A program made the position numbers and the translations under genes. Shown one piece after another: positions 7,241 through 24,935 of a DNA stretch of 32,863 nucleotides. The notes beneath the pieces are model-generated. The model saw nothing but the letters and a program-made list of their open reading frames with translations. It did no database searches and had not been told where the DNA came from. The stretch is from a virus (lineage: Duplodnaviria; Heunggongvirae; Uroviricota; Caudoviricetes). Position 1 is the stretch's first letter. Each line of letters starts with the position of its first letter. The stretch lies in the IMG/VR virus record IMGVR_UViG_2700989508_000029. One strand, given 5' to 3'.

Positions 7241-7241
7241 A

Positions 7242-10699: not shown

Positions 10700-10739
10700 T
10701 AGTTCACTATGACCTACCCCTAGCTCACTGTGAGCTACC

Positions 10740-11680
10740 GTTACATTCAATCATCTTCCGATGTGTAATATCGTTACATTCAATAATTAGTCTATGTAAC
10801 ATATCGTTACTACCAACTTTCTTACAAAGAGCATTTCAGATAGCTGAATGTAACCTCTCGTTACATCCATTTGTCACATAGCACTCTGTGTAATGCCTTT
10901 CTATGTGTGTGCCATAATCCCCCCTATATTCCCTGTGTAAATCATAGAATATCCCTAACTTATTCCTGTGTAATTCCATACTAAAAATTCAATGAAAAAA
11001 GTAGCTTAAAAGTTCAATTCTTACTTTCTTCACTTTTACATCACTTTCGCAAATCCTTGTGTAATGCGGCTTACAGAGCACCATCAGAAATTGTTGGCTA
11101 AAAATTGTTCTGCTTGTTTCTTAATGAGTTTTCTTGTTTGTGCAAATTTTAAAATTTATTTTGTTTTTACAGCCTTATTTCGTGTAATGCGTGGCATAGC
11201 AAGCCCTTTTCTTGTGTTGTCAAGACATTTGGCAACGTTCAAACATCTGTTTAGAAATGCCAAATTGTTGATCTAACAAATAAACCTGTATAAACAGAAC
11301 ACCATTTAATCTATTCCCCTGTGTAATCCACTACATCACACGATAAAAACAAAAAACTTTTAATTATATTTCATAGCACACAAAAGTCAACAGAAGCCCT
11401 CTCGTGCTCCTACGTAAAAAATCCATCACTTTTCCCCTGATACATCAACTCAAGGCGTTCTATGTGTTCCTTAGTGCATATTACGATTATTATGTTAAAT
11501 GGATTTTGGCCTATATTTTGACCTGCACCCGCATAAACACTGGTTTCATCGCTTACAGCCCTTGTGAGACGTGGTGCTGTTTCTAGCATCTGATCCGACA
11601 TAAAACCGATCATTCTCGTGTTTAGTGAAAGTTTAGTGAGAGACATTACAGAAAGGCTTTCTGTGTAATGATTTAATAGG
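10740..11680. repeat. dispersed tcgttacat (4 copies, 10740..10870) and ctgtgtaat (at least 7 copies) motifs across a region with little coding potential
   Basis: Seen in sequence: accgttacattcaat, atcgttacattcaat, atcgttactacc, ctcgttacatcc; then ctgtgtaatgcc, cctgtgtaaatc, cctgtgtaattcc, cttgtgtaatgcgg, tcgtgtaatgcgtgg, cctgtgtaatcc, ctgtgtaatgatt. Confidence 0.6.
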
Positions 11681-11793
11681 TAAAAACGATGTTGATTACG
11701 CAAGAAAATTCCTTGCTGATATTTGGGGATTCTGGATTTTCCAGATCGGGGGGCGCTGAAAATCGCGTTAAGCACTTCTCGCAATCTAGCCAT
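11410..11793 (-). CDS. questionable ORF (127 aa) inside the repeat tract
   Basis: ATG start but no Shine-Dalgarno; overlaps the ctgtgtaat repeats; unremarkable composition. Listed only because nothing else covers the span. Confidence 0.2.
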   Translation of the reverse strand: MARLREVLNAIFSAPRSGKSRIPKYQQGIFLRNQHRFYLLNHYTESLSVMSLTKLSLNTRMIGFMSDQMLETAPRLTRAVSDETSVYAGAGQNIGQNPFNIIIVICTKEHIERLELMYQGKSDGFFT

Positions 11794-12137
11794 AAGGGAA
11801 GGGATATAGGTATTTAGATGTATTTATAGCTAATTTATAGCTATTTATTTTTTATTTACCTTTATTAAAAATAACCTTATAAATCAATAAGATACATAAT
11901 TATCTGTTTATATTCTAATCAATTAAATCAAGTTTAATACCCTTAAATAACCTGAAAATAGCCTTAAATACCCCAATAATTAATTTTAAGGTTTTCCGTG
12001 TTCTCTTCTGCATTATGAAAATGCAAAATAAGGCACAAAACAAGCTCACATACGCATTAAACACACATCACCTATACATCCCTATGCCAAGCAATGAAAA
12101 CAGCGTTAGAATGCGTCCTGTTGCGTTCTGGAGATTT

Positions 12138-12296
12138 TCAGAAATCCTCTCTAAGCCATTTCAACTCACTAAGGAGTTTTCTTTCTTCGTTCTCTCGTTG
12201 CTTTCGCTCTAGCCAGGCTTTTCCCTCTGGCGTAGACAGGAACTTACGAGCGTGAATCTTGCGGTTATTACGTTTGATAGCTGCAATGTTTTTCAT
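12138..12296 (-). CDS. possible small basic protein (52 aa; MKNIAAIKRNNRKIHARKFLSTPEGKAWLERKQRENEERKLLSELKWLREDF), absent from the ORF track
   Basis: My own translation of the minus strand; GAGG 6 nt upstream of the ATG; K/R-rich. Confidence 0.25.
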   Translation of the reverse strand: MKNIAAIKRNNRKIHARKFLSTPEGKAWLERKQRENEERKLLSELKWLREDF

Positions 12297-12900
12297 CGTG
12301 TGCCTCTGTATTCATATGAAAATTAACAAGTTACATACTACACAGGGAGACTACGCATAAAACACAATACAAGTAAAGATACATTTTCAAGACAATAGGA
12401 GCCATAAAGCGCCTTTGATGGTTATACCAAAAAATAAGCGCCGTAGGCGTATCCACTAAAAAGGGCTTTTTCACAAAAGCTATGAAGTCTTAGCAGTTCT
12501 TCTCTTATCAGGCACCCGTTGTACTCCGGTGGACGAAACCGTGCTAGAGCTTGATTCTTTCCCGATCAAGTTAGGTTTTGAAGAGGTGGGCTTTAATCCA
12601 CTATGCACTTAAAACTCTTCCCATCATTTAGCCTGTTTATCCTCTGCAACGTCTCACGACGTGTAGCATCATTGGACACCGCGCCAGGTGTGGAACATCT
12701 TGCTAAGAGTTTTGGTAGAAGGTTTAGAGACGGTGGCACGTCTTCCAGCTTCAAAGGAACTTGTTACGAGGTTGAGCCTGGGAACTACTCGCCCATACGT
12801 GTTACACTACCAAAGCCCATAACAACGTATAGGCGTTTGTAAGTGATAACAGAAGATACAATTTCTTAGAGAAGTTAAGCTAAGTTATTGATTTTCTTAA

Positions 12901-12917
12901 TGGTGCGATAATAGGAA
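12901..12917. repeat. degenerate third att-like site (tggtgc-gataatagga), putative junction between the two tandem elements
   Basis: Matches 16 of 17 positions of the att core with one deleted C; the left flank (ttgattttcttaa) resembles the flank of the 538 copy; the right flank (atacccccaaaagtacccccaaa, ~12965..12990) resembles the motif between the P4-type int and thrW (acccccataagtaccccca, ~31285..31308). Confidence 0.45.
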
Positions 12918-13257
12918 CAAAACAAACAATAAAAATACATTGATATATAAAGACATTTTCCCATTACATCTTTGTAGATACCCCCAAAAGTACCCCCAAA
13001 CAATTTTCTCTCACCACCATTTGCACATAAAGCAGCCATGTACAACTGGTAGTTGAACAGGCGGGTAGACCGTTCGTTCAGTAAATACCTGATATTTCCG
13101 CCAACGAGAAATTGCGTTGGCTGGCAGAGTGCAAATTTGCACGATAACCTAACCCATTGATTCTTTCGAAAACCCGCAATGCAGGAAGCCGGATAACACC
13201 ATTTTATAGCTCCGATCCCTTCAAAGTGAGGGGTAATTTGCCAAAACAGAGAGAGCA

Positions 13258-13545
13258 TTACTGTCTCTGGCAATCTTTATCGCGATAACGCCTGAAGTAC
13301 CCTCTCGCTTCCTCATCCATACCAAGAGCCGAATGAGTCCGCTTAACTGCCTGTCTTAAATCTCCGAATCTGTCTGTAGTTGCTGGTGGGCGTGCCGCCT
13401 TACGGATACATTCAGAGCGTCTGTTTGCTGCATGTTCACGTTCTTTATCGCCATCTGCCAGCATCATGACTTCTGCCCATCGTGCGGCAGCTCTCCGGTA
13501 TAGCCCTTTTGACTCCAGCTCTTCAGCTTTCCTGTCCTTTATCAT
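13258..13545 (-). CDS. PerC-family transcriptional regulator-like protein (95 aa)
   Basis: N-terminal LESKGLYRRAAARWAEVM resembles the conserved PerC/Pch motif; basic C-terminus. From motif memory. Confidence 0.55.
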   Translation of the reverse strand: MIKDRKAEELESKGLYRRAAARWAEVMMLADGDKEREHAANRRSECIRKAARPPATTDRFGDLRQAVKRTHSALGMDEEARGYFRRYRDKDCQRQ

Positions 13546-13575
13546 TTCTGCCTCTCAGATTATATAGATAAGCAA

Positions 13576-13706
13576 AAAGGTGTTGGTTCAGTTGGTTCAG
13601 TTGGTTCAATTTGTAAAGAGCGTTGTTTTTATTGTGTTTTTTCTAAAATATTGAACCAACATCAACTCATTTTGAACCAACACAGCCCAGCTCTGAACCA
13701 ACAACA
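13576..13706. repeat. iteron module A: three tandem GTTGGTTCA units, an AT-rich spacer, then three inverted TTGAACCAAC units; putative replication-origin-like site
   Basis: Seen in sequence; 13576..13617 is the exact reverse complement of 22113..22154. Confidence 0.7.
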
Positions 13707-13744
13707 CAGCGATAGATTTGCGATTGGTCCGTTATTTTCTGGCT

Positions 13745-13795
13745 GATATTTGAGCGTATAACAGTGTTATACAGTGGTATACTGTATGGATATTA
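13745..13795. promoter_or_regulatory. operator-like palindromes upstream of the RHH regulator gene
   Basis: gtataacagtgttatac (near-perfect palindrome) and ggtatactgtatgg directly upstream of the 13805/13817 start. Confidence 0.35.
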
Positions 13796-13804
13796 CTCAC
13801 TGAT

Positions 13805-14245
13805 ATGGTCTTTGCAATGAGCAAATCTAATCTGATCGCGTTCCGCATCCCATCTGAATTGCAGGATGAGTTTAATCGGTCTGTTCTCGCTTCTGGAGGG
13901 GATAAAACCTCCTGGCTTGTTGATGCGATTCGCATGAAGCTGGGACAGCCGGAAAAGTCTATTGATTCACGAATGCTTGGGCTGGTGGAGCGCATGGAAA
14001 AAGCCGCAGCATCGCTTATTGCCGGAAAGCCGAACATCCCACCAAAGCCATATAACGAAACGGCAGTTATAAAGATCATTGCCGATACCATCCGACAGGG
14101 ATTTGATAATGGGCGTGTGATAGCTGAACGGCTCAATGAAGCAGGCTACCAAACAAAAGCTGGTAAAGCGTGGGATAAAGACATTTACAGCGCGTGGAAG
14201 CGTCAGGATAACAATATTAAAAGAATCAATACGCTGCTTCAGTAA
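13805..14245 (+). CDS. two-domain DNA-binding regulator: N-terminal ribbon-helix-helix (Mnt/Arc-like) plus C-terminal recombinase-type DNA-binding motif
   Basis: SNLIAFRIPSELQDEFNRSVL...WLVDAIRMKL fits RHH; C-terminal IAERLNEAGYQTKAGKAWDKDIY resembles the DNA-binding motif of recombinase-associated domains. Start may be ATG 13805 or 13817. Convergent with the Abi gene. Confidence 0.55.
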   Translation: MVFAMSKSNLIAFRIPSELQDEFNRSVLASGGDKTSWLVDAIRMKLGQPEKSIDSRMLGLVERMEKAAASLIAGKPNIPPKPYNETAVIKIIADTIRQGFDNGRVIAERLNEAGYQTKAGKAWDKDIYSAWKRQDNNIKRINTLLQ

Positions 14246-14274
14246 TTGATCAGTGTATAAATGATATTTATCGC

Positions 14275-15252
14275 TCAATCGCTCCCTTTCCGCCCTTCAG
14301 CTACAGGGTCGTTGTCGGCGATAACAAAACCTAAGTCCTGAGAGAATCTCTCTCGTGGGAATCCTTTAGCAGGTAAACCCATTGAATCATATCCACATCC
14401 GGGAACATTTGGTTTAGAGTCAATAAGGTCTGCAATTTGCCGAAGCCATGTTGATCCCGGACCAAGTCGTTTAACTAAGTACCAGATAATACAGATCGCG
14501 CTAAAAATCCTCTCGCAACTCTCTGGATGGAGATTAAGTCCGTCAAAGTATTCATTATCCGGTACTGGAACTCGGGGATGCTTTCTATTCCATATTCTGG
14601 AATGGTGAGCGCAACGATTCCTTATGAGATTAAGGCACTTCAACCATTTTGCAAATGTCTGCTTATTATCAATGCCAAAACGACGTATAATTTTCCCCTG
14701 CATATGACCATTAAGCATCGCATAATATTTAGACATCTGACCAAAATCCCAGGTCTCCACCGCCACCCAAAATGGAATCTCCTTGCCTTGGCTTCGATGC
14801 CATTCAATACAGTCATCTCTGCTTTCGTCTAATTTTACTTTTTGCTTATACACCCAATGCTCGAAGGCAGATGAGAATTTTGGATTAATGTATTTTGATG
14901 ACATGTAGGCAAGTGGATCATTGCGACCAACCTCATGCGCGATGACTGAACGAACATGAATCTCTATTCTTTCGATAGCATCAATCATCAAAAGACGCAG
15001 TTTTTTGTCAAAAAGATATAGATCGTACGTCTTCTCGAAACTGGTACCAGTAAGAAATCGGTCTGTTCTGTACGAAAGACCTTTATCTGTTGTCGCAATA
15101 ATTCTTGATGGGTACCAAAAACCTGACAATCGATAATATCCAACCTGCGACAGCTTACGTATCGCACGATTTCGATCATTGATAATCATGCCACGTTCAA
15201 GTAGCAATCCTAGCAATTCGTGATAGTCCTTATGAGGCTTTGCGGCAATCAT
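14275..15252 (-). CDS. Abi_2-family (AbiD/AbiF-like) abortive-infection protein
   Basis: N-terminal signature KPHKDYHELLGLLLERGMIINDRNRAIRKLSQVGYYRLSGFWYP matches the Abi_2 family pattern; low GC. ORF track starts at a GTG (15297); I prefer ATG 15252. Confidence 0.7.
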   Translation of the reverse strand: MIAAKPHKDYHELLGLLLERGMIINDRNRAIRKLSQVGYYRLSGFWYPSRIIATTDKGLSYRTDRFLTGTSFEKTYDLYLFDKKLRLLMIDAIERIEIHVRSVIAHEVGRNDPLAYMSSKYINPKFSSAFEHWVYKQKVKLDESRDDCIEWHRSQGKEIPFWVAVETWDFGQMSKYYAMLNGHMQGKIIRRFGIDNKQTFAKWLKCLNLIRNRCAHHSRIWNRKHPRVPVPDNEYFDGLNLHPESCERIFSAICIIWYLVKRLGPGSTWLRQIADLIDSKPNVPGCGYDSMGLPAKGFPRERFSQDLGFVIADNDPVAEGRKGSD

Positions 15253-15885
15253 AGTGGCGAAACAAAAGATAATAAAAGGCCCGACCGTGAAACTCACATG
15301 CCTGAAATCGGCGGCGGAGAAACAGAGGATCGGGCTCGGTTGCCTGTAACTCTATCCGAAGTTATCCACATGTCAATGCACAGTTACTTAGGAAACTAAC
15401 ATAGGTACTATCATCACTCACGAAAAACCACTATATGTGGTTTTTATTCATATCGTTATCCACTACAGGCTGTGTCAATAACTTTTACCTATTAATTGGG
15501 TAATTTCTACATTTTCCTATGCTGGCTAGTTTCTCTACTGAAAAGTTGGCACTCCTTAATCGCTTTTCGGTTAATACTATCGGTCTTCATATTGCCAGCA
15601 GCATACGCCATCCGATAATTTCGATGCTACGCGCGCGTACTTGTCGCAAAATATCAGGCAAAGGCCAGATTCAGAACGTCGTGATAACCACCAGCACAAC
15701 ATGAGATGTCATGTAACACGATTTATCACATCAGATACATGTGATTGGTGTACCCGCATAAAACATCGTCATAGCGCGTCCTGTGCGCATATACGCCGAT
15801 AATCAACACATCACCACCACTCTGTCTCGTGTAGAGAACAGTTTCATGGTATCCCCCGCCATCGTGTGCGTACTGGTCGGACGTA

Positions 15886-15906
15886 GTTGCAAAATTTTTG
15901 CAACTG
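15886..15906. promoter_or_regulatory. near-perfect palindrome agttgcaaaatttttgcaact (operator-like) in the intergenic region upstream of the membrane-protein gene
   Basis: Seen in sequence; nearby gcgcgtactggtc direct repeats (x2) and the palindrome ggatttgaaatcc. Confidence 0.35.
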
Positions 15907-16121
15907 ATACCCCTCGCGCGCGTACTGGTCACGAAATTGGTGTTTTGCTGTGGCAGTGATATCAGAAAAATCTTCCTGTTTCACATAAAGCGGATATGCG
16001 CGTACTGTAACGGCCCCATCAACGGGGATCGGATTTGAAATCCCGACCCAAGCTATGTACCAAATGCCATGTCTTGGATATATGATGATTGCCATTCTAA
16101 ACAACGCTAAAGGGGGTTGGT

Positions 16122-16736
16122 GTGAGCAGAAAAGATACTAAAGAATTGCTAACTATCTGCATGGTGTACTTTTCAATTTATTTTTGTGCATACATGATAG
16201 TCCCAGATGAGTTTGAACATGGCAGTATTATTTATTCCATAACATTCTATTTTTTAGAGCTAACACCAATTTTGGCTATCCTTTTGGCAATACATATTTA
16301 TTTTTCCTTAAAAAAAGAATCGACTAATTGGGAGAAGGTATGGAGAGACAGAGGATTTCTAACATCACCTAAAGATGATGCATATGAGAGTGATTTTTCT
16401 GACTTTATAACAAACTACTACTCCAGCGAACAATTCAAAAATAGACTGTCTGATGTTTGGGAAACAGCAATGTATTCCATAGGGATTATATTATTGATAC
16501 TTACTGGTATTGCTCAATATGTTTTTAACATTGACTTATCATTAAATCCTGAAAATTTAATATCGCCATTGATTTTTGGTGAGATATTGATCTTCTCATT
16601 CGGAATTTTCTTGAGTGTTGTTCTCTGCTCATTATGCAAACTACTGACTAACAGGTATCCAGGTGAAGCAAGGAGAGCAAGAAAGGCAAATCCATATTAT
16701 CTTTTATTTCCTAATGGAGACAGCAGAGATATCTAA
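16122..16736 (+). CDS. small inner-membrane protein (about 4 TM helices), candidate superinfection-exclusion/defence protein
   Basis: Four hydrophobic segments (LLTICMVYFSIYFCAYMIV, ITFYFLELTPILAILLAIHIYF, AMYSIGIILLILTGIAQYVF, LIFGEILIFSFGIFLSVVLCSL); low GC; sits where sieA lies in P22 (directly after gene 16, opposite strand). Function is inference. Confidence 0.6.
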   Translation: MSRKDTKELLTICMVYFSIYFCAYMIVPDEFEHGSIIYSITFYFLELTPILAILLAIHIYFSLKKESTNWEKVWRDRGFLTSPKDDAYESDFSDFITNYYSSEQFKNRLSDVWETAMYSIGIILLILTGIAQYVFNIDLSLNPENLISPLIFGEILIFSFGIFLSVVLCSLCKLLTNRYPGEARRARKANPYYLLFPNGDSRDI

Positions 16737-16754
16737 GCCATCCATGGCTACCAG

Positions 16755-18860
16755 TTATTGAGCTTCTTTTTGTGATGCCTGTGCGACTCTGGTGAGCGAT
16801 TGTGTGACCGTACTGATCGCTCTGTCATATGCTGTGCTACCTTTTGGCGTATTTGCCAAACGTAACAAGGCATTTCGTATAACAGGGCTTTCGTATGCCT
16901 TCGCGGCTCCGCCTACGGCACCAGCAGCAGGAACAACAAACGCAGCCGTTTTTAGCATCCCCGCTAATACTGCTGCGTTTATGATGCCACCACCAACTAA
17001 CAATCCATAAAGCTGCTGACCATTTAAGTTTTGAACGTTCGCTTTTGCCGCGTGTCTTGTATCGTTGAGGTATTTAATAACGCCGTCCAGTTCCTTTCCA
17101 TGTACGCCTTTAAAGAAAGTTGCTGATTGCTTCCTGTTCCGGTGTAACGCATTAATAAACTTCTCAACACTGATATTTCCAGACGGATCAGTCGCCTTAT
17201 CTACAGCATTCTGAACTATGGCTGCTCGTGCGTTTTGCCTACCATTGTCATCCAGAAGCCTGTAAAGCTGAGAACGTTCTGATGGGCTTTGGCTAAAAAC
17301 GAGTTTTGTTACATCCTCAGGCGTGGCCTTGCCGCTGGCTATTGCCTTTTGAACGCGCGTTCTTCCCATCATGTCATTGAATTTAGACCATGAGCGATCA
17401 ACCCTTGCCATATTAATGGCTTCGTCTGCTCCAAGATTTTTGGCTACGGCTTTTTTCATATCCGCCGTATATGCCTTGTAGATAATATCGCTGGCTTTCT
17501 GGAGCGTATCTTTATCAACAGTGTCAGATGACGCCATAAACCGCTTTCGAAGATCGGTTCTGTTTTCCCTCGCCAGACGCAGGTCATTTGGTCCGCTGGT
17601 GATATCGTCTTTAAATTGCTGCAAGACTTTTACCGCGGCTCTATCCTGAGATTTACCCGGGCGGCTTAACACAGCAATCTGATTGTCGATAGCTTTTACC
17701 GTGTTTGAGAGATCGACAGGGGTATCCCCCATAGCGTCAATTATGCGGTTATATCGCTTTCCTGCTGCCTCAATGAATTTTTGTTGCCCTTTAGTCGCAG
17801 ATTCATAAAGCTGTTTATCAGAAATGCCACCCAGACCATCGCTAAATGTTCTGACTAAATTTTCTCGTGCTTGTTGTTGATTCAGCCGATTCTTACCGGT
17901 TCCAAAAAAAGGAACTCTTTCGCCTAATGTCTGAGCCTGACTCTGCATAAAGGTTTTATCTTTCAGCATGTCACTGGTCATTAACGGCAGATTTCTTTCC
18001 GATGCAAAGTCGACAGCAGCCTTTGCTTCAGGCGACATATCACCACGAACAGCCCTCGAAACCGCACTCGCTGTATTTTCCAGCCCCTTACCAATACCAC
18101 CAATGCCAGCAGAAATTACCGTTTGTAACGGATCAATATCTTCTCCACCAGCAAGGCTAGTGGCTCCCTGTAGTGCTAAATCTGTAGCTGCTGATTTTCC
18201 TATGGCACCAAGCACCGTTCCAGCCCTGCCCGCTGGTGTAAACGCCAGCGCATTAGCCAGAAACGATGCCACGTCTTGCGGCGATAAACCCGGCTTGTTC
18301 AGAGCATAATCACCGGATGGCAGGGAAACGATAGTGTTACCCTTCTCATCCTGCCTTAATTTCGCTCCCATGCTCTGAAGAATCTTTTCCTGAGATGCGT
18401 CAGAGCCGAAAAGTTGAGACCATCGAGCTTTTAGAGCATCCATGCTGAGTGAGGTTAACTCTGGGGCAAGGTCGACATTTTGCAGTCTCTCCATCTCTGG
18501 AGTCATTCGGCTTTCGCCTGTTATAGCATCGCGCATCGCAGCCCCAAGACTGGCTCCCTGTTCTGCTGAACGCTCAAGCCCCTCTCTTTGCTGAGTAGCT
18601 AACTTTGCATACCCTGACGCAAGAGAATTATCAGATGATGTATGTTGAATATTTTGAGTTGCTGATTGGGATCGGTCTATTTCATTCGTTGATGGTAGTG
18701 GATAGGCAGCATAAAAAGCCTGCTTAGCCTGCTCTACACTTTCTCCGGCTTGCGGGGCCACGACTTCATTGAAGTATTGCTCCTGAGCCTGCGCTTTTTG
18801 TTCTGGTGCTAACGCCTGATACTGTGGAGAGGCGATAACATCTTTCCATGCTTTAGCCAT
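16755..18860 (-). CDS. phage ejection (DNA-transfer) protein, P22 gp16-like (701 aa)
   Basis: Fourth gene of an operon with TAATG-coupled junctions; sizes and order 153/225/473/701 aa parallel P22 genes 14/7/20/16 (gp7 ~229, gp20 ~471, gp16 ~609 aa); A/Q/G-rich composition. Assignment is inference from architecture. Confidence 0.5.
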   Translation of the reverse strand: MAKAWKDVIASPQYQALAPEQKAQAQEQYFNEVVAPQAGESVEQAKQAFYAAYPLPSTNEIDRSQSATQNIQHTSSDNSLASGYAKLATQQREGLERSAEQGASLGAAMRDAITGESRMTPEMERLQNVDLAPELTSLSMDALKARWSQLFGSDASQEKILQSMGAKLRQDEKGNTIVSLPSGDYALNKPGLSPQDVASFLANALAFTPAGRAGTVLGAIGKSAATDLALQGATSLAGGEDIDPLQTVISAGIGGIGKGLENTASAVSRAVRGDMSPEAKAAVDFASERNLPLMTSDMLKDKTFMQSQAQTLGERVPFFGTGKNRLNQQQARENLVRTFSDGLGGISDKQLYESATKGQQKFIEAAGKRYNRIIDAMGDTPVDLSNTVKAIDNQIAVLSRPGKSQDRAAVKVLQQFKDDITSGPNDLRLARENRTDLRKRFMASSDTVDKDTLQKASDIIYKAYTADMKKAVAKNLGADEAINMARVDRSWSKFNDMMGRTRVQKAIASGKATPEDVTKLVFSQSPSERSQLYRLLDDNGRQNARAAIVQNAVDKATDPSGNISVEKFINALHRNRKQSATFFKGVHGKELDGVIKYLNDTRHAAKANVQNLNGQQLYGLLVGGGIINAAVLAGMLKTAAFVVPAAGAVGGAAKAYESPVIRNALLRLANTPKGSTAYDRAISTVTQSLTRVAQASQKEAQ

Positions 18861-20281
18861 TAATCACCCCATAGTGAAGAAAAGTTACTGCTGGCTGCTG
18901 GCTGTGATACCTGCTCAGATTGCGGCAATGTCTGCGACGAAGAAGAAGTTCCTCTGTCAACTGCTGAAATAACCCGCAAAGCATCATAAGCTCGACCAGA
19001 AGCAGCTTTCAGCGAATTGAACTGGTTTTCCATCTTCCGGCGCTTGGTATCAATGGTTTTTGTGGAGTCGCCAGGCTGAGGGAAATACATTTGATAATAT
19101 TTTGACATTTCAGCAGGTACGATGGCTGCCCCTGTTTCCTGACGGAGTATTGCCATTATTGCGTCATTAGCATTAACAACGTATTGCTGTTCTGTTGGGC
19201 TGAGCGTTAAGTTAGCCAGCGTCCCATTACCCAAAGCATTATTAATGATCGCCACTCGCTGTGGGCTAAGCTGGTCTTTCAGTGTATCTATTGAATCAAG
19301 AGCATCCCTAACCCTGTATGCAAATCCAGCAGCTTTTTTAGCCCCTTCTGGCGACTTTTCCATGATCTTTTGGGCTGTTGGCAAAGCTATTGGACGAAAC
19401 CCATCTCCAGATATTGGCTGGTTTAGTTTTCCCTGCTCTTCACTTCCGTCTGTGTAGTATTTTGTGACAGTGCCATCATCGTTTTCTCTAACACTCATTA
19501 ATTTTTTGGCGTTTGTATTAATTCCAGCCGCTGCCGCAAATGCCGCCGCCCCCTCTGGATCCGCCTTTAACATTTGAGCGTACTGATTGTAATTCTGCAT
19601 TGCTGCTGTTGGTGCATATGCTGACGTTAACGCATTTGCTCGGCTAATATCCTGCCCTCTCGCCTGAAGTGCTTCGCCAGCCTGATTGCTGCGGATTGTC
19701 TCTGCCAACTTGCCACGCTCAATATCCCGACCTTCCATTTGATCTTTGATATCGAAATACTTCTCATGACCGAGAGAAAACAGTGCCATACTACCAGCAA
19801 GCCGCTGGAACCCCTGTGGATCATTAACATGCATTTCGGCAACAGACTCAGGAGAAATTCCCAAGCGACGCATTTCATCTTCGTTATCTGCTATGAATTT
19901 TCCAAATGCCCCAGTTCCGAGCGAAGATGCGATTTGAGCACTAGTCGCAAGATGACCAATAGAATTTCTCTGGTCGTCATCAATAAAGCCCATCCCTTTC
20001 TGAACGCTTTCAAATTCTTCTGGATACTCAGAAATAAGACTGCGCATTTTGTTTCTGTCTCCAGACTCAAAAGCCCCGGCATATGCTTTCTGAAACTCTG
20101 CTTTACGCTGTTGTTGACGTGCCTGCTGATTAATCTCAGCAACGCCTCTTAGCCCCTGTAGCGCCATTAAACCTACGTTTGGCTGCTGCTGATACTGCAC
20201 AGGCTGAGGAACGGAAGAACGAGGAGCATTATCATTTTGCGGTGCCATGCTAGGCAGCCCGCCAAGTTGCCATGTCGCCAT
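18860..20281 (-). CDS. phage ejection protein, P22 gp20-like (473 aa)
   Basis: Start ATG overlaps the upstream TAA (TAATG); size matches gp20; Q/A-rich. Confidence 0.5.
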   Translation of the reverse strand: MATWQLGGLPSMAPQNDNAPRSSVPQPVQYQQQPNVGLMALQGLRGVAEINQQARQQQRKAEFQKAYAGAFESGDRNKMRSLISEYPEEFESVQKGMGFIDDDQRNSIGHLATSAQIASSLGTGAFGKFIADNEDEMRRLGISPESVAEMHVNDPQGFQRLAGSMALFSLGHEKYFDIKDQMEGRDIERGKLAETIRSNQAGEALQARGQDISRANALTSAYAPTAAMQNYNQYAQMLKADPEGAAAFAAAAGINTNAKKLMSVRENDDGTVTKYYTDGSEEQGKLNQPISGDGFRPIALPTAQKIMEKSPEGAKKAAGFAYRVRDALDSIDTLKDQLSPQRVAIINNALGNGTLANLTLSPTEQQYVVNANDAIMAILRQETGAAIVPAEMSKYYQMYFPQPGDSTKTIDTKRRKMENQFNSLKAASGRAYDALRVISAVDRGTSSSSQTLPQSEQVSQPAASSNFSSLWGD

Positions 20282-20958
20282 TAGAATCCAAGCCCCCCAA
20301 CAAGACCAATAAGCCCACCACCAATAGCGCCGGCCGCAGTTCCTATTCCAGGAACAACGGAACCAAGTTGCGCACCCGCTAAAGCGCCTGATGCTGCCCC
20401 ACCAATACCACGCGCAAGACTGGATGGCTGCTGCGCCTGACCTGCACGAATAGCGCCAAGCCCCTGCAAGAGTTGTCCGGTATTATTGGCGTAGTTTTGC
20501 CCTGCCGTTGCCTGCCCTGATGCCGCATTCATCCCGACATTTAGCAGGTTTCCATAATTTTGCATTTGCCCACTAAGCCAATTGTTATAAAGCATGGGCG
20601 CAATGGAAGATAACTGGTTACTGGTAGCTGTTGAGCCAAGCCCCCCGGTAGCTTCTGCTGAGACAAGGTTCTGATAACGGGCCTGATCTGCCTGTGTTTT
20701 ATATAAACCAGAACCAAAGAAATCATTCGCTGCTTTATTCTGCCCTTCCAGAGTCATCAGTCCTTGTAGTTGTTGTAAAGCAGGCAATCCGACTTCTGCA
20801 TACGGCTTGAGATTATTCATCACCGTATTCCACTGCTCGCGCTGCAAATCAATTGCCTGCTGCTGGGCCTTCGCCTGAGCTTTAGAGGCACCACCATCAC
20901 CGCCTTTTTCGTATACGGCACGATTGAGATGTTTATGAGCTATATGGGTAATTAACAT
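20281..20958 (-). CDS. phage ejection protein, P22 gp7-like (225 aa) with Gly-rich hydrophobic C-terminus
   Basis: C-terminal GIGGAASGALAGAQLGSVVPGIGTAAGAIGGGLIGLVGGLGF; size matches gp7; coupled to flanking genes. Confidence 0.5.
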   Translation of the reverse strand: MLITHIAHKHLNRAVYEKGGDGGASKAQAKAQQQAIDLQREQWNTVMNNLKPYAEVGLPALQQLQGLMTLEGQNKAANDFFGSGLYKTQADQARYQNLVSAEATGGLGSTATSNQLSSIAPMLYNNWLSGQMQNYGNLLNVGMNAASGQATAGQNYANNTGQLLQGLGAIRAGQAQQPSSLARGIGGAASGALAGAQLGSVVPGIGTAAGAIGGGLIGLVGGLGF

Positions 20959-21413
20959 TCGCTGAATTCCTTATATTGTTGCCGAGTTAACTGATAAAGC
21001 GTTACGCCGACGGGTTTACCACATCTGATATAAGCATCATCAAGGTGACCAACACGGGTAGCGCCAAGCAAACGGATAATTGCCCGTCCGTATTTCGTGG
21101 TGTCAGGAACCATAGTGATGCTGTTAAGGAATGGTGAGTTTTCGAGAAGCCATTTGCAGAATAATCGATGTCCTTGCAGTGCATATTCACCACGGAATCC
21201 GGGGTCGTACACCGCATGGCATTCAACAACGCTATGCCAGAAGCTACGCACTTCATGAACGCCAGCCAGCACCAATCCTTCGTAGATGCCGAGATATACC
21301 GCATCAGGCTTGATGTAGTACGTGTGCCCCGGCTCAACAATATTTTCGGTATTGCCTGGCTCGTTAAGAAAGGCCTGTAATCGCACAGGGTTATCAATAA
21401 ATTTTAGTTCCAT
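20952..21413 (-). CDS. gp14-like protein (153 aa), first gene of the ejection-protein operon
   Basis: Size and position analogous to P22 gene 14; 8-nt overlap with the next gene. Confidence 0.45.
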   Translation of the reverse strand: MELKFIDNPVRLQAFLNEPGNTENIVEPGHTYYIKPDAVYLGIYEGLVLAGVHEVRSFWHSVVECHAVYDPGFRGEYALQGHRLFCKWLLENSPFLNSITMVPDTTKYGRAIIRLLGATRVGHLDDAYIRCGKPVGVTLYQLTRQQYKEFSEC

Positions 21414-21429
21414 GCGATGCCATCCATTT

Positions 21430-21591
21430 TCACATACAGCCTGCCAGCGCCTTATCTATTAACCCTCGTGCAATTTCATGCAGAGTTGGCGCTACTCCAA
21501 TTCCTGATTTTTTACGCTGCTCTTCCTGAATTTTCTTTATCGCTTCCATTTGCTTCTCACTTATCAATACCGGCTTTACTGAAATAGCCAT
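21430..21591 (-). CDS. possible small DNA-binding protein (53 aa; MAISVKPVLISEKQMEAIKKIQEEQRKKSGIGVAPTLHEIARGLIDKALAGCM), absent from the ORF track
   Basis: My own translation; AGGGGG 4-5 nt upstream of the ATG; ends 17 nt before the gp14-like start. Confidence 0.3.
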   Translation of the reverse strand: MAISVKPVLISEKQMEAIKKIQEEQRKKSGIGVAPTLHEIARGLIDKALAGCM

Positions 21592-22036
21592 AACGCCCCC
21601 TTAGAACTGTATAAAACAACAGTTATTATAGTTTCACAAATCGCAATATTCATCATAGTAATTGCAAAATATGAAACAAATAGCACAAAAAAATGCCACC
21701 GCTCAGTAGCTGGTGGCATCGTTCTGTGTGTCAGGTTTTGACAGGTTTTTTATGGACTCTAAAAACTATATTTATGGTGTCGCATTACTCTTCACGGCAG
21801 GCGCTTTTCAGTTCTGCCCTTGCTTCTGGCTCCATTGGTAATTTGATTCGCGATCAGCTATGCGGATGGTTTGCTGAACAGGCATAACAACTTCTCAGAG
21901 GCTGTTTTTTGAACTGCGAAAATTTCGTAGTGCTCACTTTCAAAAACGTCACGCCCTTGTACACAGGATTTTACGAAAGTCTCGTAAAACACTCTCTGAT
22001 GCCAGCCAGGTGTTGTGCGCATCAATTCAGTCACAT

Positions 22037-22155
22037 TGTGTTGGTTCAAAATACCGTGTTGTTGGTTCAGTGTTGGTTCAATAAAAAGAATAAAATCCTT
22101 ATAAAACAATACACTTTACAAATTGAACCAACTGAACCAACTGAACCAACACCTT
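22037..22155. repeat. iteron module B (putative ori next to the primase gene): three GTTGGTTCA units, spacer, then three tandem inverted units
   Basis: Seen in sequence; mirror image of module A; lies 20 bp downstream of the primase stop. Confidence 0.7.
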
Positions 22156-22175
22156 TTCTACGCACATGAAGAAGC

Positions 22176-24935
22176 TCATTCTTCAGATGAGTTATAATCT
22201 CCTGGCTGGTAATTGAGTACATAAACGTTTATTTGTCGTCCCTGAATACGTGGTGATTTTCTTTGGTATCCACGACCGCTGTTTGGTGGGGTTAGCATCC
22301 CGGCTTTTTTCAACACTTCAGCAAACTGTTTTGCGTTGAAACCACATGCGATCTCCTTTTCAAATGTGGCCGGGAATGTGTAGAAAATCATTGGGCTTTC
22401 GTCATGTTCTCCACGCTGACGGTATCCGGCTAAATCTTTGATGGGCAAATCTGCCGGGCTGTATGGAAATGGTGCAAAACGGCTAAGCCCATAGGCATTA
22501 AGAAATGCCTCCGTTTGTTCAATAATCTGCTGATGCTCTTTGTTACCTGTGCCGAACTCGCGCAACCATGCGTTATAGCTGTGCTGTATCGCATCACGGC
22601 ATGTCTGAGCATCCCAGCCTGTTACAACCTCGCCTAACAACAATGCGGCCTCCATAATGGCAAATCGCGCGGCTACACGGTGAACCTGCTCACCATAATC
22701 GGATGGGATCAGGCTTCTCCATCTGCTTTCGCAATCACGAACGGTTTTAATAGCCTGTTGCTGGTGGTGTGCCAGCCATTTAATCCACTCACGCCCGGAC
22801 GCGCCGTGGTGATGCTGGTAAGCGTCTTTCAGTGCGTCTGCGTGCTGTTTTCCGTTCTGGTAATCGTGAAAGCGTACTGCTTTACTCAACGGAATATTCA
22901 GCAGTCGCACCAGTTGCCCGGCTTTGGTTTTTCGCCCGGAAGTAGCGATAAATGTTTCTAAATCCATTTCTCCGGTGCTGATTGCCACTGTACGCCAGCG
23001 TTTTAGATCCCGGTTTCCACCATCTTTAGCGCCTTGCAGTTTCCCTACACCGTTAAATAACGCATAGGCAGACTGTGAAACGCTGACAGGATCAGCGCCC
23101 TGACCAACTTCATCAAGCGGCATTAGTCCGTCATTGTGGGCGGCGGCCTCATTTGCCAGCCCCAGCGCGGTTCCGTACCACGTCAGCCGCAGTAAATCAG
23201 GGTTGCCGTATAAGCTGCTCGCCACGTTTGCCGTGGTGGTCTTACCTGCGCTCGACTGCTCATAGAAATGAATGCCGAACCCGTCAGCGCCCACCAGCCC
23301 AATCAATGGCGCTGCCAGTGCTGCGCCGATCCCGGTCATCATTGAATAGTTACCAAAGGCCAGACGCGCCACGTTATCACGCCAGCTTTTCGCGCTCCCT
23401 GAGACGGTATATCCGGCTGCGGCTGAGCTTCTCCCGCTGAACAGCACAGGATTTTCAGGTGTTCCGATGATTTCCCCATCAGGCATGATGTACGCTCCGC
23501 ATTGCCAGCCAGTGGCATGAGCAACACGCCACAATTCACGAGAGCCACTGCGTTGTAGCCAGTCTGCCAGTATTGCTCTGAGGCTGCTTTTGGTCGTGAC
23601 ATTTACCCCACCAGCTTTAAGTGTGCGCCATCCTTCACGTTCACCAATATCAGCCAGTGGAATGGCAGCGGTTGTCGGCGTTTCAGAACCAAACGACAGC
23701 CAGCGAAGAATGAGATACTGGTCTTTATCGTCTCTGCCAGTACCGATAACGCTTAACGGAGAACATAACCAGCTTTCGTTATTGATGATTTCTCCACTCT
23801 GGCTGTCAGCTCTCGGAGATACCCAATAAATACCATCCTCGCGGCTTTCTATTCTTGGTTTCAGTGGGTCGGTATCCATAACCTTAAAATCGCTTCCCTC
23901 AATGGTCTGTGGCTCCTGTTTCACGCCATTACCCTGTGGTTGGTACATTGACTTATTGAACGCTTCTGTGGCGCATTTAATGCCGTGTTTTTGGTGGTAA
24001 TCATTCCAGTCTGCTTTGTGATCTGTCGGGGGTAATGCCACCCATCCAGAAACAGATAAAGCTGCTTTTTCTGCTGCTATTCTCCCCGTGTTTTGTCTTC
24101 CTTCGCTGTGGTCGTTATCCGCAGCAATGATGATTTGTGCTGAAGGAAATTTATCCCGCAGTACCTGGGCGACATATAACAGGTTCCCGGCATCAATCGC
24201 CGCCACTGTCAGCGCCTCTGGACGAATTAAATGGGCAGATAATGCCGTTGCCAGACCTTCTGCGATTAAGATGCTCTGTGTTGTTTCTGGTGCGTTTATG
24301 GCGTGATATGCCCCCCGCTTTGCTGAACCTGTCAGGAGTCTTTTTTCACCATGTGAGGTAATAGTCTGTGCTGCTGTTACTGCGCCGGATTTATCCACCA
24401 GCGCCAGCAACAGAGATCCATCGGGCAACACGGGGAATGTAAAATCACCTACCCCTTTCGCAACCAGATAATCAGATTTGCCGTTTACAGCCTTTCTGCG
24501 CATGTCATCAAACTGACGGGAAAACGTATCCCGTCTTTGTTGTTCGTCCTTCTCTGCCCTTTTCAGGCGCTCCTGTTCGCGTCGCTGGCGCTCGGTTTCC
24601 AGTTGTTCCCGTTTCTGGCTGGTGGCTTCTGGTGTTTCCGTTGTCCGGTAATCAATACCCAGAACATCAGCGGCAAGAAGCGCCGCCTCTGTTGTGTCGC
24701 AGTTATTTACGCGTTTAATTAAATCCAGCCCATCACCAGCGCCGCACTGATTACAGATGAAGCTACCGCGCCCGTTGTCATCGAACCGGAATCGATCTTT
24801 GCCCCCACATGCAGGGCAGGGAGCATGACGGCGCGGAGAGTCAGGGACATTTATGTTCAGGCAGCCCAGCACATGAGGCCAGTTGTTTTCAGACGCACTG
24901 ATAACCTGACGGATAAGATCAATGTTTCGCATCAC
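22176..24935 (-). CDS. P4 alpha-like primase-helicase (zinc-ribbon + TOPRIM + Walker-A ATPase domain), 919 aa
   Basis: N-terminal Cys4 zinc ribbon (PCPACGG...FICNQCG); acidic TOPRIM-like segment (IIIAADNDHSEGRQNTG); Walker A (SSAGKTT); adjacent iterons. Confidence 0.85.
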   Translation of the reverse strand: MMRNIDLIRQVISASENNWPHVLGCLNINVPDSPRRHAPCPACGGKDRFRFDDNGRGSFICNQCGAGDGLDLIKRVNNCDTTEAALLAADVLGIDYRTTETPEATSQKREQLETERQRREQERLKRAEKDEQQRRDTFSRQFDDMRRKAVNGKSDYLVAKGVGDFTFPVLPDGSLLLALVDKSGAVTAAQTITSHGEKRLLTGSAKRGAYHAINAPETTQSILIAEGLATALSAHLIRPEALTVAAIDAGNLLYVAQVLRDKFPSAQIIIAADNDHSEGRQNTGRIAAEKAALSVSGWVALPPTDHKADWNDYHQKHGIKCATEAFNKSMYQPQGNGVKQEPQTIEGSDFKVMDTDPLKPRIESREDGIYWVSPRADSQSGEIINNESWLCSPLSVIGTGRDDKDQYLILRWLSFGSETPTTAAIPLADIGEREGWRTLKAGGVNVTTKSSLRAILADWLQRSGSRELWRVAHATGWQCGAYIMPDGEIIGTPENPVLFSGRSSAAAGYTVSGSAKSWRDNVARLAFGNYSMMTGIGAALAAPLIGLVGADGFGIHFYEQSSAGKTTTANVASSLYGNPDLLRLTWYGTALGLANEAAAHNDGLMPLDEVGQGADPVSVSQSAYALFNGVGKLQGAKDGGNRDLKRWRTVAISTGEMDLETFIATSGRKTKAGQLVRLLNIPLSKAVRFHDYQNGKQHADALKDAYQHHHGASGREWIKWLAHHQQQAIKTVRDCESRWRSLIPSDYGEQVHRVAARFAIMEAALLLGEVVTGWDAQTCRDAIQHSYNAWLREFGTGNKEHQQIIEQTEAFLNAYGLSRFAPFPYSPADLPIKDLAGYRQRGEHDESPMIFYTFPATFEKEIACGFNAKQFAEVLKKAGMLTPPNSGRGYQRKSPRIQGRQINVYVLNYQPGDYNSSEE

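What the first reader, a model, noticed from the sequence alone, without database searches (positions are those of the whole stretch)
13576..22155. Perfect 42-bp inverted repeats within mirrored iteron modules bracket the 8.5 kb cargo segment
13576..13617 (aaggtgttggttcagttggttcagttggttcaatttgtaaag) is the exact reverse complement of 22113..22154. Each copy sits in a ~120-bp module of GTTGGTTCA iterons in both orientations, and the two modules are mirror images. The segment between them holds the ejection-protein operon and the Abi/membrane/RHH cluster. The pair could be an ori/crr-type origin for the adjacent primase (P4 uses two iteron regions), the footprint of cargo acquisition by recombination at origin repeats, or the ends of an invertible segment.
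Basis: seen in the sequence. Interest (0 to 1): 0.6.

Follow-up and report, generated by a model that had tools for sequence, protein, structure and literature searches.

The report
Two mirrored replication origins in a PICI
The inverted repeats are two copies of the replication-origin module of a phage-parasitic island (an EcCIMP1-type PICI): one sits in the usual place after the primase-helicase gene and a second, mirrored one 8.5 kb away, an arrangement found in several bacterial genera but not described in the papers I could search.

Summary
A perfect 44-nt inverted repeat (13575-13618 / 22114-22157) lies inside two mirrored ~125-bp modules. Each module has three tandem GTTGGTTCA iterons, a 43-bp AT-rich spacer and three opposed iterons.

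The window is E. coli. The modules belong to an 18.5-kb EcCIMP1-like PICI integrated at tRNA-Thr (thrW). Module R starts 18 bp after the stop of the primase-helicase (PriRep), which is the standard PICI ori position and anatomy.

- In 53 of 55 PriRep homologues with enough downstream sequence, an iteron cluster follows the gene.
- The iteron sequence co-varies with a short C-terminal segment of the protein.
- R travels with the helicase/C-terminal cassette when the replicon is swapped.

Relatives show two layouts:
- a compact 12-iteron origin ending in inverted tandem triples (never with a distant copy), or
- a 6-iteron origin plus a distant, always inverted second module 0.3-10 kb away.

The second module is its own conserved type across genera, so it is old and maintained. 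The cargo between the modules varies.

None of 576 E. coli genomes shows the flipped orientation, so an invertible segment is not supported.

Best reading: a dual or bipartite PriRep origin, working like P4 ori/crr. This is a new variant of a known kind and is of moderate interest.

The parts
22037..22157 (-). Module R: the primase-proximal origin module. Read in the primase direction it has tandem iterons 22150-22124, an AT-rich spacer 22123-22081, and opposed iterons at 22080-22072, 22069-22061 and 22048-22040. The module ends 18 bp after the PriRep stop codon.
   Evidence: The same position and anatomy occur in 53 of 55 homologous loci. It is lost together with the helicase/C-terminal cassette in L003.
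13575..13707 (+). Module L: the distal, mirrored origin module (M2 type). It has tandem iterons 13582-13608, an AT-rich spacer 13609-13651, and opposed iterons at 13652, 13673 and 13694 (21/21-bp spacing). Its outer edge lies 29 bp upstream of the perC start codon.
   Evidence: M2-type modules with 21/21 spacing and a TATATAAG outer flank are conserved across genera. The module is present in EcCIMP1 itself and in CV839-06.
13575..13618 (.). Left arm of the perfect 44-nt inverted repeat.
22114..22157 (.). Right arm of the perfect 44-nt inverted repeat.
22176..24935 (-). PriRep primase-helicase, 919 aa: Zn-ribbon + TOPRIM primase domain, DUF927 helicase, and a C-terminal segment that co-varies with the iteron sequence.
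   Evidence: Pfam and PHROGs DNA primase. The N-terminal domain is 33% identical to P4 alpha, E 2e-41. The helicase matches the chain deposited as 'Pathogenicity island protein', PDB 8tch, E 3e-11. C-terminal co-variation with iterons is shown.
16755..21591 (-). Cargo, proximal part: 53-aa ORF (21430-21591), DUF2824/gp14-like (20952-21413), P22 gp7-like (20281-20958), gp20-like injectosome translocase (18860-20281), gp16-like DNA transfer protein (16755-18860).
   Evidence: Pfam and PHROGs. About 90% nucleotide matches to P22-like phages including Kapi1.
13805..16736 (.). Cargo, distal variable part: 146-aa protein with a ribbon-helix-helix-like N-terminus (13805-14245, +), Abi_2 protein (14275-15297, -), small ORFs, and a 204-aa protein (16122-16736, +; weak SieA-like hit).
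   Evidence: EcCIMP1 carries other genes in this stretch.
13756..13789 (.). Operator-like repeats (ACAGTGTTATAC / ACTGTATAC type) between module L and the 146-aa gene. This is a likely separate binding site for that protein.
   Evidence: The equivalent position in other genera carries GTAAGACA x2, with or without an adjacent iteron module.
13258..13545 (-). PerC-family regulator gene, immediately outside module L.
   Evidence: Pfam PF06069, E 3e-33. In other genera perC follows the proximal module or the compact origin instead.
12894..12923 (+). Distal att-like repeat of the PICI, and the junction with the neighbouring element A.
   Evidence: Direct repeat family D2. The homology break with L003 falls at window 12888.
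30040..31495 (-). Integrase (30040-31254) and tRNA-Thr(CGT) with the att repeat 31414-31443: the proximal end of the PICI.

Best explanation
Both modules are arrays of binding sites for the island's own primase-helicase (PriRep). Together they form the replication origin of an EcCIMP1-type phage-inducible chromosomal island.

Each module alone has the standard PICI/SaPI origin layout: two opposed iteron sets around an AT-rich stretch where the DNA can melt. Module R is the standard origin directly after pri-rep. Module L is a second, paralogous module at the far end of the helper-exploitation and defence genes, close to the island's distal att site.

After the helper phage induces the island and it excises as an 18.5-kb circle, PriRep would bind both arrays through its C-terminal segment. 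L then either fires as a second origin or, like crr/ori of satellite P4, cooperates with R, possibly through protein-mediated looping. Sister lineages keep the same 12 iterons as one compact ~260-bp origin that ends in inverted tandem triples. The split form therefore looks like that origin with 1-10 kb of genes nested between its halves.

Shown here: the anatomy, the link to the primase gene, the co-variation with the protein, and the recurrence and conservation of the inverted pair.
Inferred: binding by PriRep.
Not shown: that L is needed for, or takes part in, replication.
For: Context:
- The island is 97.8% identical over 12.65 kb to EcCIMP1 of E. coli MP1. That PICI was shown experimentally to be mobilised by the P22-like phage Kapi1 (PMC11773190).
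- EcCIMP1 itself has both modules.

Link to the primase:
- An iteron cluster starts 26-59 bp after the gene in 53 of 55 homologous loci from many Enterobacterales genera.
- Seven iteron sequences occur, each tied to its own C-terminal motif. Examples: GAACCAAC with QRKS-PRI, GAGACAAC with QGRV--RE, ACGGGTTA with KKKALRKM.
- At matched core identity, same-iteron pairs have more similar C-termini than different-iteron pairs (Mann-Whitney p 3e-6 to 1e-24; pairs are not phylogenetically independent).
- In L003 the helicase + C-terminus + R were replaced as one block (window 21994-23925) by a DUF5906 replicon with its own iterons.

Known rules that fit:
- PICI/SaPI origins lie just 3' of rep, have 6-12 iterons in two opposed sets around an AT-rich region, and are read by the Rep C-terminal domain (PMC9371898; PMC6092414).
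- The helicase part matches the PDB chain 8tch, deposited as 'Pathogenicity island protein'.

Second module:
- 0 of 22 compact 12-iteron loci have a distant copy, against 11 of 23 six-iteron loci (Fisher p 2e-4). The latter is a lower bound because flanks stop at 10 kb.
- In all ten genome-collection pairs that I aligned, the second copy scored higher as an inverted than as a direct match to the first. The tandem triples are opposed in all four split pairs from viral contigs and in MP1 and CV839-06.
- M1 and M2 are distinct conserved types across genera. Iteron columns are 95-99% conserved against 61-74% for the spacers.

P4 comparison:
- The P4 record shows crr directly after alpha, units of tandem (9-bp period) plus opposed iterons, and ori 4.7 kb away with its tandem set inverted.
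Against: - No experiment or computation here shows that L binds PriRep or is needed for replication.
- R alone already meets the published definition of a complete PICI origin.
- About half of the six-iteron loci show no second module within the 10 kb available, so L may be dispensable.
- In L003 an intact L persists without its primase, which shows it can survive as an orphan at least for a short time.
- The C-terminal segment gave only a low-confidence model (pLDDT 54). It has no detectable sequence similarity to the P4 alpha C-terminus, so a DNA-binding fold is unconfirmed.
- The loci compared are related to one another, so the counts and p-values overstate independence.
Confidence: 0.6

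Rival explanations
1. L is bound by PriRep but is not an origin. It acts as a regulatory array. One version is an operator that couples expression of perC (start codon 29 bp from the tandem iterons) or the divergent gene to PriRep level. The other is a copy-control or handcuffing site, like the extra iteron arrays of P1 (incA) and other iteron plasmids (comparison from general knowledge, not tested here).
For: - In every layout a gene starts right outside a tandem triple. perC follows L here, and follows M1 or the compact origin in other genera.
- The outer flank of M2 carries a conserved TATATAA-like motif; here it is a perfect TATAAT about 20 bp from the last iteron.
Against: - The consensus scan found no sigma-70-type promoter in either module.
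- L has its own 43-bp AT-rich spacer and opposed iterons, the full origin anatomy, which an operator would not need.
- Islands with no detectable perC still have both modules (L036, L061, L062).
Confidence: 0.18
2. L is a functionally neutral duplicate of the origin, kept similar to R by occasional gene conversion. Its main consequence is evolutionary: R and L serve as conserved homology anchors for swapping the cargo between islands.
For: - The cargo between the modules differs among close relatives while both modules stay in place.
- The arms sometimes share derived variants, which suggests conversion: GTTGGTTCG in both arms of CV839-06, GTCGGTTCA in both of L036, and GTTAGTTCA in both of L027.
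- An orphan L persists in L003.
Against: - M2 is a distinct type with its own spacing and flank, conserved across the eight genome loci from six named genera plus an Erwinia MAG in which it was found. Its iteron columns are far better conserved than its spacers, which is not expected of a neutral copy.
- Compact and split forms are complementary (0/22 against 11/23), which suggests a requirement for two iteron sets.
Confidence: 0.12
3. The iterons are bound by another island protein, such as the 146-aa protein encoded next to L or PerC, rather than by the primase. On this view the modules are transcriptional control regions.
For: - Short contiguous 9-bp repeats resemble the repeat arrays bound by some ribbon-helix-helix proteins (general knowledge, not tested here).
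- The 146-aa gene sits next to M2 in several genera.
Against: - That gene has its own separate operator-like repeats, and it occurs without an adjacent iteron module in L023, L025 and L041.
- EcCIMP1 and CV839-06 have L but no homologue of the 146-aa gene.
- Iteron type tracks the primase C-terminus, and R is swapped together with the primase.
Confidence: 0.04
4. The repeats are the ends of an invertible 8.5-kb segment that flips by recombination between the arms.
For: - A 44-55 nt inverted repeat could support rare RecA- or phage-mediated inversion.
- Shared variants between the arms show that the arms do interact at times.
Against: - A synthetic flipped junction found no genome with 80% or more coverage among 576 E. 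coli genomes that match it.
- No invertase or other recombinase domain was found in the Pfam/PHROGs scans of most cargo genes.
- The orientation relative to the primase is the same in all relatives examined.
Confidence: 0.02

Closest known systems
PICI / SaPI replication origin (ori immediately 3' of rep or pri-rep)
   Same: - Module R lies directly after the pri-rep gene.
- Each module has two opposed sets of short iterons around an AT-rich region.
- There are 6 iterons per module and 12 in all, within the published range of 6-12 (PMC9371898, PMC6092414).
- The helicase domain matches the PDB chain deposited as 'Pathogenicity island protein', 8tch.
   Different: - A second complete module sits 8.5 kb away in mirror orientation, with the packaging/ejection and defence genes between the two.
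- The papers read describe a single origin next to rep.
- The EcCIMP1 paper contains none of the terms 'iteron', 'origin of replication' or 'inverted repeat'.
Satellite phage P4 ori / crr bipartite origin
   Same: - Two iteron regions lie kilobases apart and share one short iteron.
- One region (crr) lies directly after the primase-helicase gene.
- Each 120-bp crr unit has two iterons at a 9-bp period, a gap, then opposed iterons. The tandem set at ori is inverted relative to crr.
- The N-terminal primase domain of PriRep is homologous to P4 alpha (33% identity, E 2e-41).
   Different: - In P4 the two regions flank the alpha operon; here both lie downstream of the primase on the integrated map.
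- P4's crr is a tandem duplication of the 120-bp unit, whereas each module here is a single unit.
- The helicase is DUF927 and the C-terminus has no detectable similarity to alpha.
- The island lacks the sid, delta and psu genes found in the P4 record.
- Whether both sites are needed in cis is unknown here.
EcCIMP1 (E. coli MP1 PICI mobilised by the P22-like phage Kapi1)
   Same: - Same thrW site, same int-alpA-antA-ash-primase backbone, and 97.8% identity over 12.65 kb.
- Same two modules.
- Same P22-like gp14/gp7 genes.
   Different: - The distal half of the cargo differs. This window has a 701-aa gp16-like protein, a 204-aa protein, Abi_2 and the 146-aa protein. EcCIMP1 has a transglycosylase-type gp16, a 232-aa protein and a small HTH gene (called alpA_1 in the paper).
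- The L + perC region is only 88% identical.
Accessory iteron arrays of iteron plasmids (for example P1 incA, handcuffing)
   Same: - A second array of initiator-binding repeats lies away from the origin proper on the same replicon.
   Different: - Those arrays lack the AT-rich melting region and act negatively on copy number. That statement rests on general knowledge and was not tested here.
- L has the full origin anatomy.

Membership tests
PICI/SaPI-type replication origin | Lies immediately 3' of the rep / pri-rep gene | tested here: met
   Met for R: the module ends 18 bp after the PriRep stop and the first iteron begins 26 bp after it. The same holds in 53 of 55 homologous loci. L does not meet this feature, being 8.5 kb away.
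PICI/SaPI-type replication origin | Two sets of iterons of opposite orientation flanking an AT-rich region | tested here: met
   Both R and L have 3 + 3 iterons around a 43-bp spacer of 16-21% G+C.
PICI/SaPI-type replication origin | Iterons recognised specifically by the C-terminal domain of the cognate Rep | tested here: inconclusive
   Iteron type co-varies with a C-terminal segment of about 15 aa, and R is co-inherited with the helicase/C-terminal cassette. There are no binding data, and the structure model is of low confidence.
PICI/SaPI-type replication origin | Rep + ori drive autonomous replication | not testable with these tools
   Needs a plasmid maintenance assay like the one done for EcCICFT073 (PMC6092414).
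P4-type bipartite origin (ori + crr) | Two separate regions carrying the same iteron, kilobases apart on one replicon | tested here: met
   The same 9-mer occurs at 13582-13702 and 22040-22150 and nowhere else in the window. The layout recurs in relatives.
P4-type bipartite origin (ori + crr) | Both regions required in cis for replication | not testable with these tools
   Needs deletion analysis. The only indirect hint is that compact and split forms are complementary.
P4-type bipartite origin (ori + crr) | Initiator is a P4 alpha-family protein (primase + alpha-type helicase + alpha C-terminal DNA-binding domain) | tested here: not met
   Only the N-terminal primase domain is homologous. The helicase is DUF927, and the C-terminus shows no similarity to alpha. 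It may work like P4, but it is not a member of the P4 family.
Invertible DNA segment | Both orientations occur among genomes or molecules | tested here: not met
   None of 576 matching E. coli genomes contains the flipped junction.
Invertible DNA segment | A dedicated recombinase is encoded in or next to the segment | tested here: not met
   No recombinase or invertase domain among the cargo proteins scanned: eight against Pfam and the 53- and 64-aa ORFs against PHROGs; a 61-aa ORF was not scanned. The only integrase is the att-site tyrosine integrase 8 kb away.
EcCIMP1-like PICI | Integrase, AlpA-type regulator, primase, PerC and helper-like DNA-transfer genes, about 18 kb, at a tRNA att site | tested here: met
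   Annotation and domains, att repeats and tRNA-Thr, and 97.8% identity to EcCIMP1 over 12.65 kb.

The most novel reading that the evidence does not exclude
EcCIMP1-family PICIs use a distance-tolerant, two-part origin whose halves bracket the helper-exploitation and defence genes. PriRep bound at the two mirrored halves pairs them, as P4 alpha is thought to pair ori and crr. The pairing, or recombination between the inverted halves during replication (a double rolling circle, as in the yeast 2-micron plasmid), would help turn the small circle into the concatemers that a headful-packaging P22-like helper needs. The conserved halves would also serve as fixed anchors for exchanging the cargo nested inside the origin.
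Probability: 0.12. Interest if true: 0.75.

Novelty: new variant of a known kind. Interest (0 to 1): 0.5.

Why it matters
PICIs and other phage satellites spread virulence and anti-phage genes, and EcCIMP1-like islands sit in roughly a tenth of complete E. coli genomes. The papers read here describe PICI replication as one origin next to rep.

A second, mirrored origin module that is conserved across genera, and that alternates with a compact 12-iteron form, suggests this family needs two initiator-binding arrays. It also suggests the family tolerates kilobases of cargo between them.

This gives three directly testable points:
- whether the distal module is needed for replication or transfer;
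- which C-terminal residues of PriRep set iteron specificity (the co-varying QRKS-PRI-type segment);
- whether the variable defence and hijacking cargo is exchanged between the two conserved modules.

It also gives a practical marker for annotating these islands, which current satellite classifiers score as incomplete according to the EcCIMP1 paper.

Tried and rejected
- **Invertible segment.** I built the junction expected after inversion and searched 5426 E. coli genomes. None of the 576 matching genomes has it. Rejected.
- **The 146-aa protein as the iteron binder.** The gene has separate operator-like repeats. It occurs without an iteron module in some loci, and L occurs without the gene in EcCIMP1 and CV839-06. 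Rejected.
- **PerC as the binder.** Islands with no detectable perC still have both modules. Rejected.
- **Promoters in the modules.** The consensus scan found none. Only a lone TATAAT lies outside L, so a regulatory role stays speculative.
- **Structure of the PriRep C-terminal 160 aa.** AlphaFold2 with 29 homologues gave pLDDT 54, too poor for a fold search, so none was run.
- **Similarity to the P4 alpha C-terminus.** The profile comparison was negative.
- **Literature search for the iteron sequence.** It returned only unrelated primer matches.
- **Island ends in other genera.** Defining them by att repeats worked only for L014.
- **Whether the six-iteron loci without a second module have one further out.** This could not be settled.
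- **Assembly artefact.** Rejected, because both copies are present in hundreds of complete genomes.

Full report
**1. The observation**

The perfect inverted repeat is 44 nt: 13575-13618 is the reverse complement of 22114-22157. The arms extend to 55 nt at 95% identity, and further inverted matches cover the rest of the modules. The full modules, 13575-13707 (L) and 22037-22157 (R), align at 76%.

All 12 exact copies of GTTGGTTCA in the window lie in these two modules. Chance would give 0.28, and none of 100 shuffles reached 12. Each module has three contiguous iterons, a 43-bp spacer of 16-21% G+C (among the lowest 0.6-1.7% of 43-nt windows), and three iterons of the opposite orientation. Those three are spaced 21/21 bp in L and 11/21 bp in R. 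A chance perfect 44-nt inverted repeat is expected about 1e-18 times. The repeat arm occurs in 528 of 5426 complete E. coli genomes, usually twice, so it is not an assembly artefact.

**2. Where it sits**

The window is E. coli, 100% identical to strain 03_3013. A tRNA-Thr(CGT) gene lies at 31420-31495, and att-like direct repeats lie at 532, 12894 and 31414. These define two elements inserted in tandem at thrW.

The modules belong to the 18.5-kb element between 12894 and 31443. Read from the tRNA, its gene order is:
- integrase
- an AlpA-type HTH regulator
- AntA/B
- Ash and an Icd-like gene
- a 919-aa TOPRIM + DUF927 primase-helicase (22176-24935)
- module R
- a 53-aa ORF
- P22-type gp14 (DUF2824), gp7, gp20 and gp16 homologues
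- a 204-aa protein
- an Abi_2 protein
- a 146-aa protein whose N-terminus looks ribbon-helix-helix by eye
- module L
- a PerC-family regulator
- the distal att repeat

This element is a close relative of EcCIMP1: window 20121-32756 is 97.8% identical to the MP1 island. EcCIMP1 is a PICI shown experimentally to be induced and transferred by the P22-like phage Kapi1 (PMC11773190). That paper contains none of the terms 'origin of replication', 'iteron' or 'inverted repeat'. EcCIMP1 itself carries both modules, at 10736-10856 and 19276-19396 of L081.

**3. The iterons belong to the primase-helicase**

I fetched loci encoding homologues of the protein (50-99% identity) from one genome per species.

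- In 53 of the 55 loci with enough downstream sequence, an iteron cluster begins 26-59 bp after the stop codon.
- Most use TGAACCAAC. Others use TGAGACAAC, ACGGGTTA, GAACCGAC, GTCGGGTA, GTGGGTTA or TGGGATAA.
- Iteron type goes with a short segment about 30 residues from the C-terminus. Examples: GRGYQRKS-PRI..GRQ with GAACCAAC, QGRV--RE with GAGACAAC, DRLKKKALRKM..GGKQH with ACGGGTTA, and KGVTRKT-LRI..DGKQP with GAACCGAC.
- At matched identity in the protein core, same-iteron pairs have much more similar C-termini than different-iteron pairs (Mann-Whitney p from 3e-6 to 1e-24). These pairs are not phylogenetically independent.

A natural replicon swap gives the same answer. In strain EC5502 (L003) the island is otherwise 96-99% identical, but window 21994-23925 is replaced. 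That block holds the helicase, the C-terminus and R. The replacement is a DUF5906 replicon with its own iterons (GGTGGTACAG type).

The N-terminal primase domain is homologous to P4 alpha (33% identity, E 2e-41). The DUF927 part matches the chain deposited as 'Pathogenicity island protein', PDB 8tch, at E 3e-11. Published work places PICI and SaPI origins immediately 3' of rep, with 6-12 iterons in two opposed sets around an AT-rich region, read by the Rep C-terminal domain (PMC9371898; PMC6092414). R fits that description point by point. Binding by PriRep remains an inference.

**4. The second module is a recurring design**

Among the homologous loci there are two origin layouts.

- **Compact.** About 260 bp with 12 iterons (pattern ---+++++-+++). 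It starts with a tandem triple and ends with the same triple inverted, and it occurs with every iteron type.
- **Short.** 111 bp with 6 iterons (---+++), like R.

None of the 22 compact loci with at least 8 kb of downstream sequence has a further cluster. Of the 23 short loci, 11 have a second cluster 0.3-9 kb downstream (Fisher p 2e-4). This is a lower bound. In many of the remaining loci the packaging genes start 3-6 kb after the primase, so the island runs beyond the 10 kb that I hold.

In each of the ten pairs I aligned, the second cluster scored higher as an inverted than as a direct match to the first. The loci are from Lonsdalea, Rosenbergiella, Chimaeribacter, Pantoea, three Serratia genomes, Leclercia, Cedecea and an Erwinia MAG. 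One Serratia pair (L039) is only a partial match.

A scan of viral contigs for the tandem triple gave more cases. Four contigs have the triples 231 bp apart (the compact form). Four have them 7.5-10.5 kb apart. In all eight, the two triples face each other. The orientation relative to the primase is always the same, and it matches the compact origin with genes placed between its halves.

An alignment of all modules shows two types.
- Proximal modules (M1) share 11/21-bp iteron spacing and a TTTATAAGG spacer motif.
- Distal modules (M2) share 21/21-bp spacing and a TATATAAG outer flank.

M2 modules from different genera group together rather than with the M1 of their own island. Iteron columns are 95-99% conserved, against 61-74% for the columns between them. 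The outer flank of L (ACACCTTTTTGCTTAT...) matches the distal end of the compact origins. The distal module is therefore old and maintained, which explains the perfect 44 nt better than a recent duplication does.

Occasional conversion between the arms is also visible. CV839-06, which carries the island at a different chromosomal site, has the same GTTGGTTCG variant in the middle iteron of both arms.

**5. What lies between the modules, and whether it flips**

The cargo varies while the modules stay. EcCIMP1 and CV839-06 carry a transglycosylase-type gp16, a 232-aa protein and a small HTH gene where this window has a 701-aa gp16-like protein, Abi and the 146-aa protein. Other genera carry unrelated genes there. 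In several genera perC lies inside the pair, directly after M1. In E. coli it lies outside, directly after L.

I built the junction expected if the segment were inverted and searched all complete E. coli genomes. None of the 576 genomes that match has it. No recombinase domain appears in the Pfam and PHROGs scans, which covered all cargo ORFs above 50 aa except one of 61 aa. An invertible switch is therefore not supported.

**6. Other binders considered**

The 146-aa gene next to L has its own operator-like repeats between its start and the iterons (window ~13756-13789; GTAAGACA x2 in other genera). It occurs without an iteron module in L023, L025 and L041. EcCIMP1 and CV839-06 have L but no homologue of this gene. 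Islands without a detectable perC still have both modules. Neither protein is a good candidate for the iteron binder.

No sigma-70 consensus promoter was found in either module. A perfect TATAAT lies about 20 bp outside the last iteron of L and upstream of perC, so an added regulatory role for L cannot be excluded.

**7. Comparison with what is known**

The closest working analogue is the ori/crr pair of satellite P4. The annotated P4 record shows:
- crr directly after the alpha gene;
- each 120-bp crr unit built from two iterons at a 9-bp period, a gap, and opposed iterons;
- ori 4.7 kb away, with its tandem set inverted relative to crr.

On the excised circle of this island, L and R likewise split the genome into two arcs. 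One arc carries int-to-primase (about 10 kb). The other carries the helper-exploitation and defence genes (about 8.5 kb).

The island is not a P4 family member. Only the primase domain is shared, the C-terminus shows no similarity to alpha, and the sid, delta and psu genes of the P4 record are absent from the island's annotation. By membership it is a PICI with a PICI-type origin. What is new is the second, mirrored module and the compact/split alternation. Neither is mentioned in the passages I retrieved from these papers by term search, and a search for the iteron sequence found nothing relevant.

**8. Limits**

Nothing here shows that L is required for replication or that it fires.
- R alone is a complete origin by the published definition.
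- An orphan L persists in the swapped island L003.
- The AlphaFold model of the C-terminal 160 residues was too poor to use (pLDDT 54).
- The loci compared are related, so the counts overstate independence.

**Verdict**

The inversion reading is rejected. The cargo-footprint reading holds only as a long-term evolutionary corollary. I put about 0.85 on the iterons being PriRep sites and R being the origin, and about 0.6 on L taking part in replication as a second origin or a crr-like partner. This is a new variant of a known kind, of moderate interest, and directly testable in the published MP1/Kapi1 system.

Noticed in passing
window 562-12888: A separate ~12.3-kb element is inserted in tandem at the same thrW att site and is absent from the otherwise matching locus L003. 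It encodes its own integrase (612-1976), tail-fibre-like and tape-measure-like proteins, a major-head-like protein (4937-5965) and an O/DnaD-like replication initiator (8075-8791). It looks like a small phage-like or satellite-like element of another kind.
   Followed up: partly
window 10351-10740: A dense field of 22-23 bp repeats lies in a ~3.5-kb stretch of element A with almost no annotated genes. Repeats include TAGTTCACAGTGACCTACCCCC in about five copies, GGAACTCATTTCCTAGGTAGGTA in three, and a 23-bp AT-rich pair. It may be that element's own origin or a regulatory region.
   Followed up: no
window 27354-27441 and 27504-27581 (- strand): Rfam finds a C4 antisense RNA (79.5 bits) and an isrK Hfq-binding RNA (67.1 bits) next to each other, inside the region annotated as a partial ash family pseudogene and just upstream of the Icd-like gene. 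This resembles the P1/P7-type C4/icd/ant immunity arrangement.
   Followed up: no
L003 22113-22227 and 23229-23335 (E. coli EC5502): The alternative DUF5906 replicon that replaces the DUF927 cassette also has two iteron clusters (GGTGGTACAG / GGTATAG type). One lies right after the gene and one about 1 kb away, with two small genes between them. Genes nested between two iteron sets are therefore not limited to one replicase type.
   Followed up: partly
L005 ~13045-13070, L009 ~12990-13015, L003 ~22150-22170: A GC-rich motif, TGGCGCGG(C/G)CTG, sits in the second half of compact 12-iteron origins with different iteron specificities. It also sits in the distal iteron cluster of the DUF5906 replicon. 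It is conserved independently of the iteron sequence and its role is unknown.
   Followed up: no
L144 5002-5122 and 13541-13651 (E. coli CV839-06): The same PICI is integrated at a different site (between yicC and dinD) with a different integrase. Both tandem triples carry the same middle-iteron variant GTTGGTTCG, which indicates gene conversion between the two arms.
   Followed up: partly
window 13756-13789: Operator-like repeats lie immediately upstream of the 146-aa gene. In other genera the same position holds two GTAAGACA repeats. This looks like a separate small regulatory unit next to module L.
   Followed up: partly
window 23926-24935 versus L003: The breakpoint of the replicon swap lies inside the primase gene, at about residue 336. 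The two replicase types share the same N-terminal Zn-ribbon/TOPRIM primase domain and differ in the helicase, the C-terminus and the origin.
   Followed up: partly
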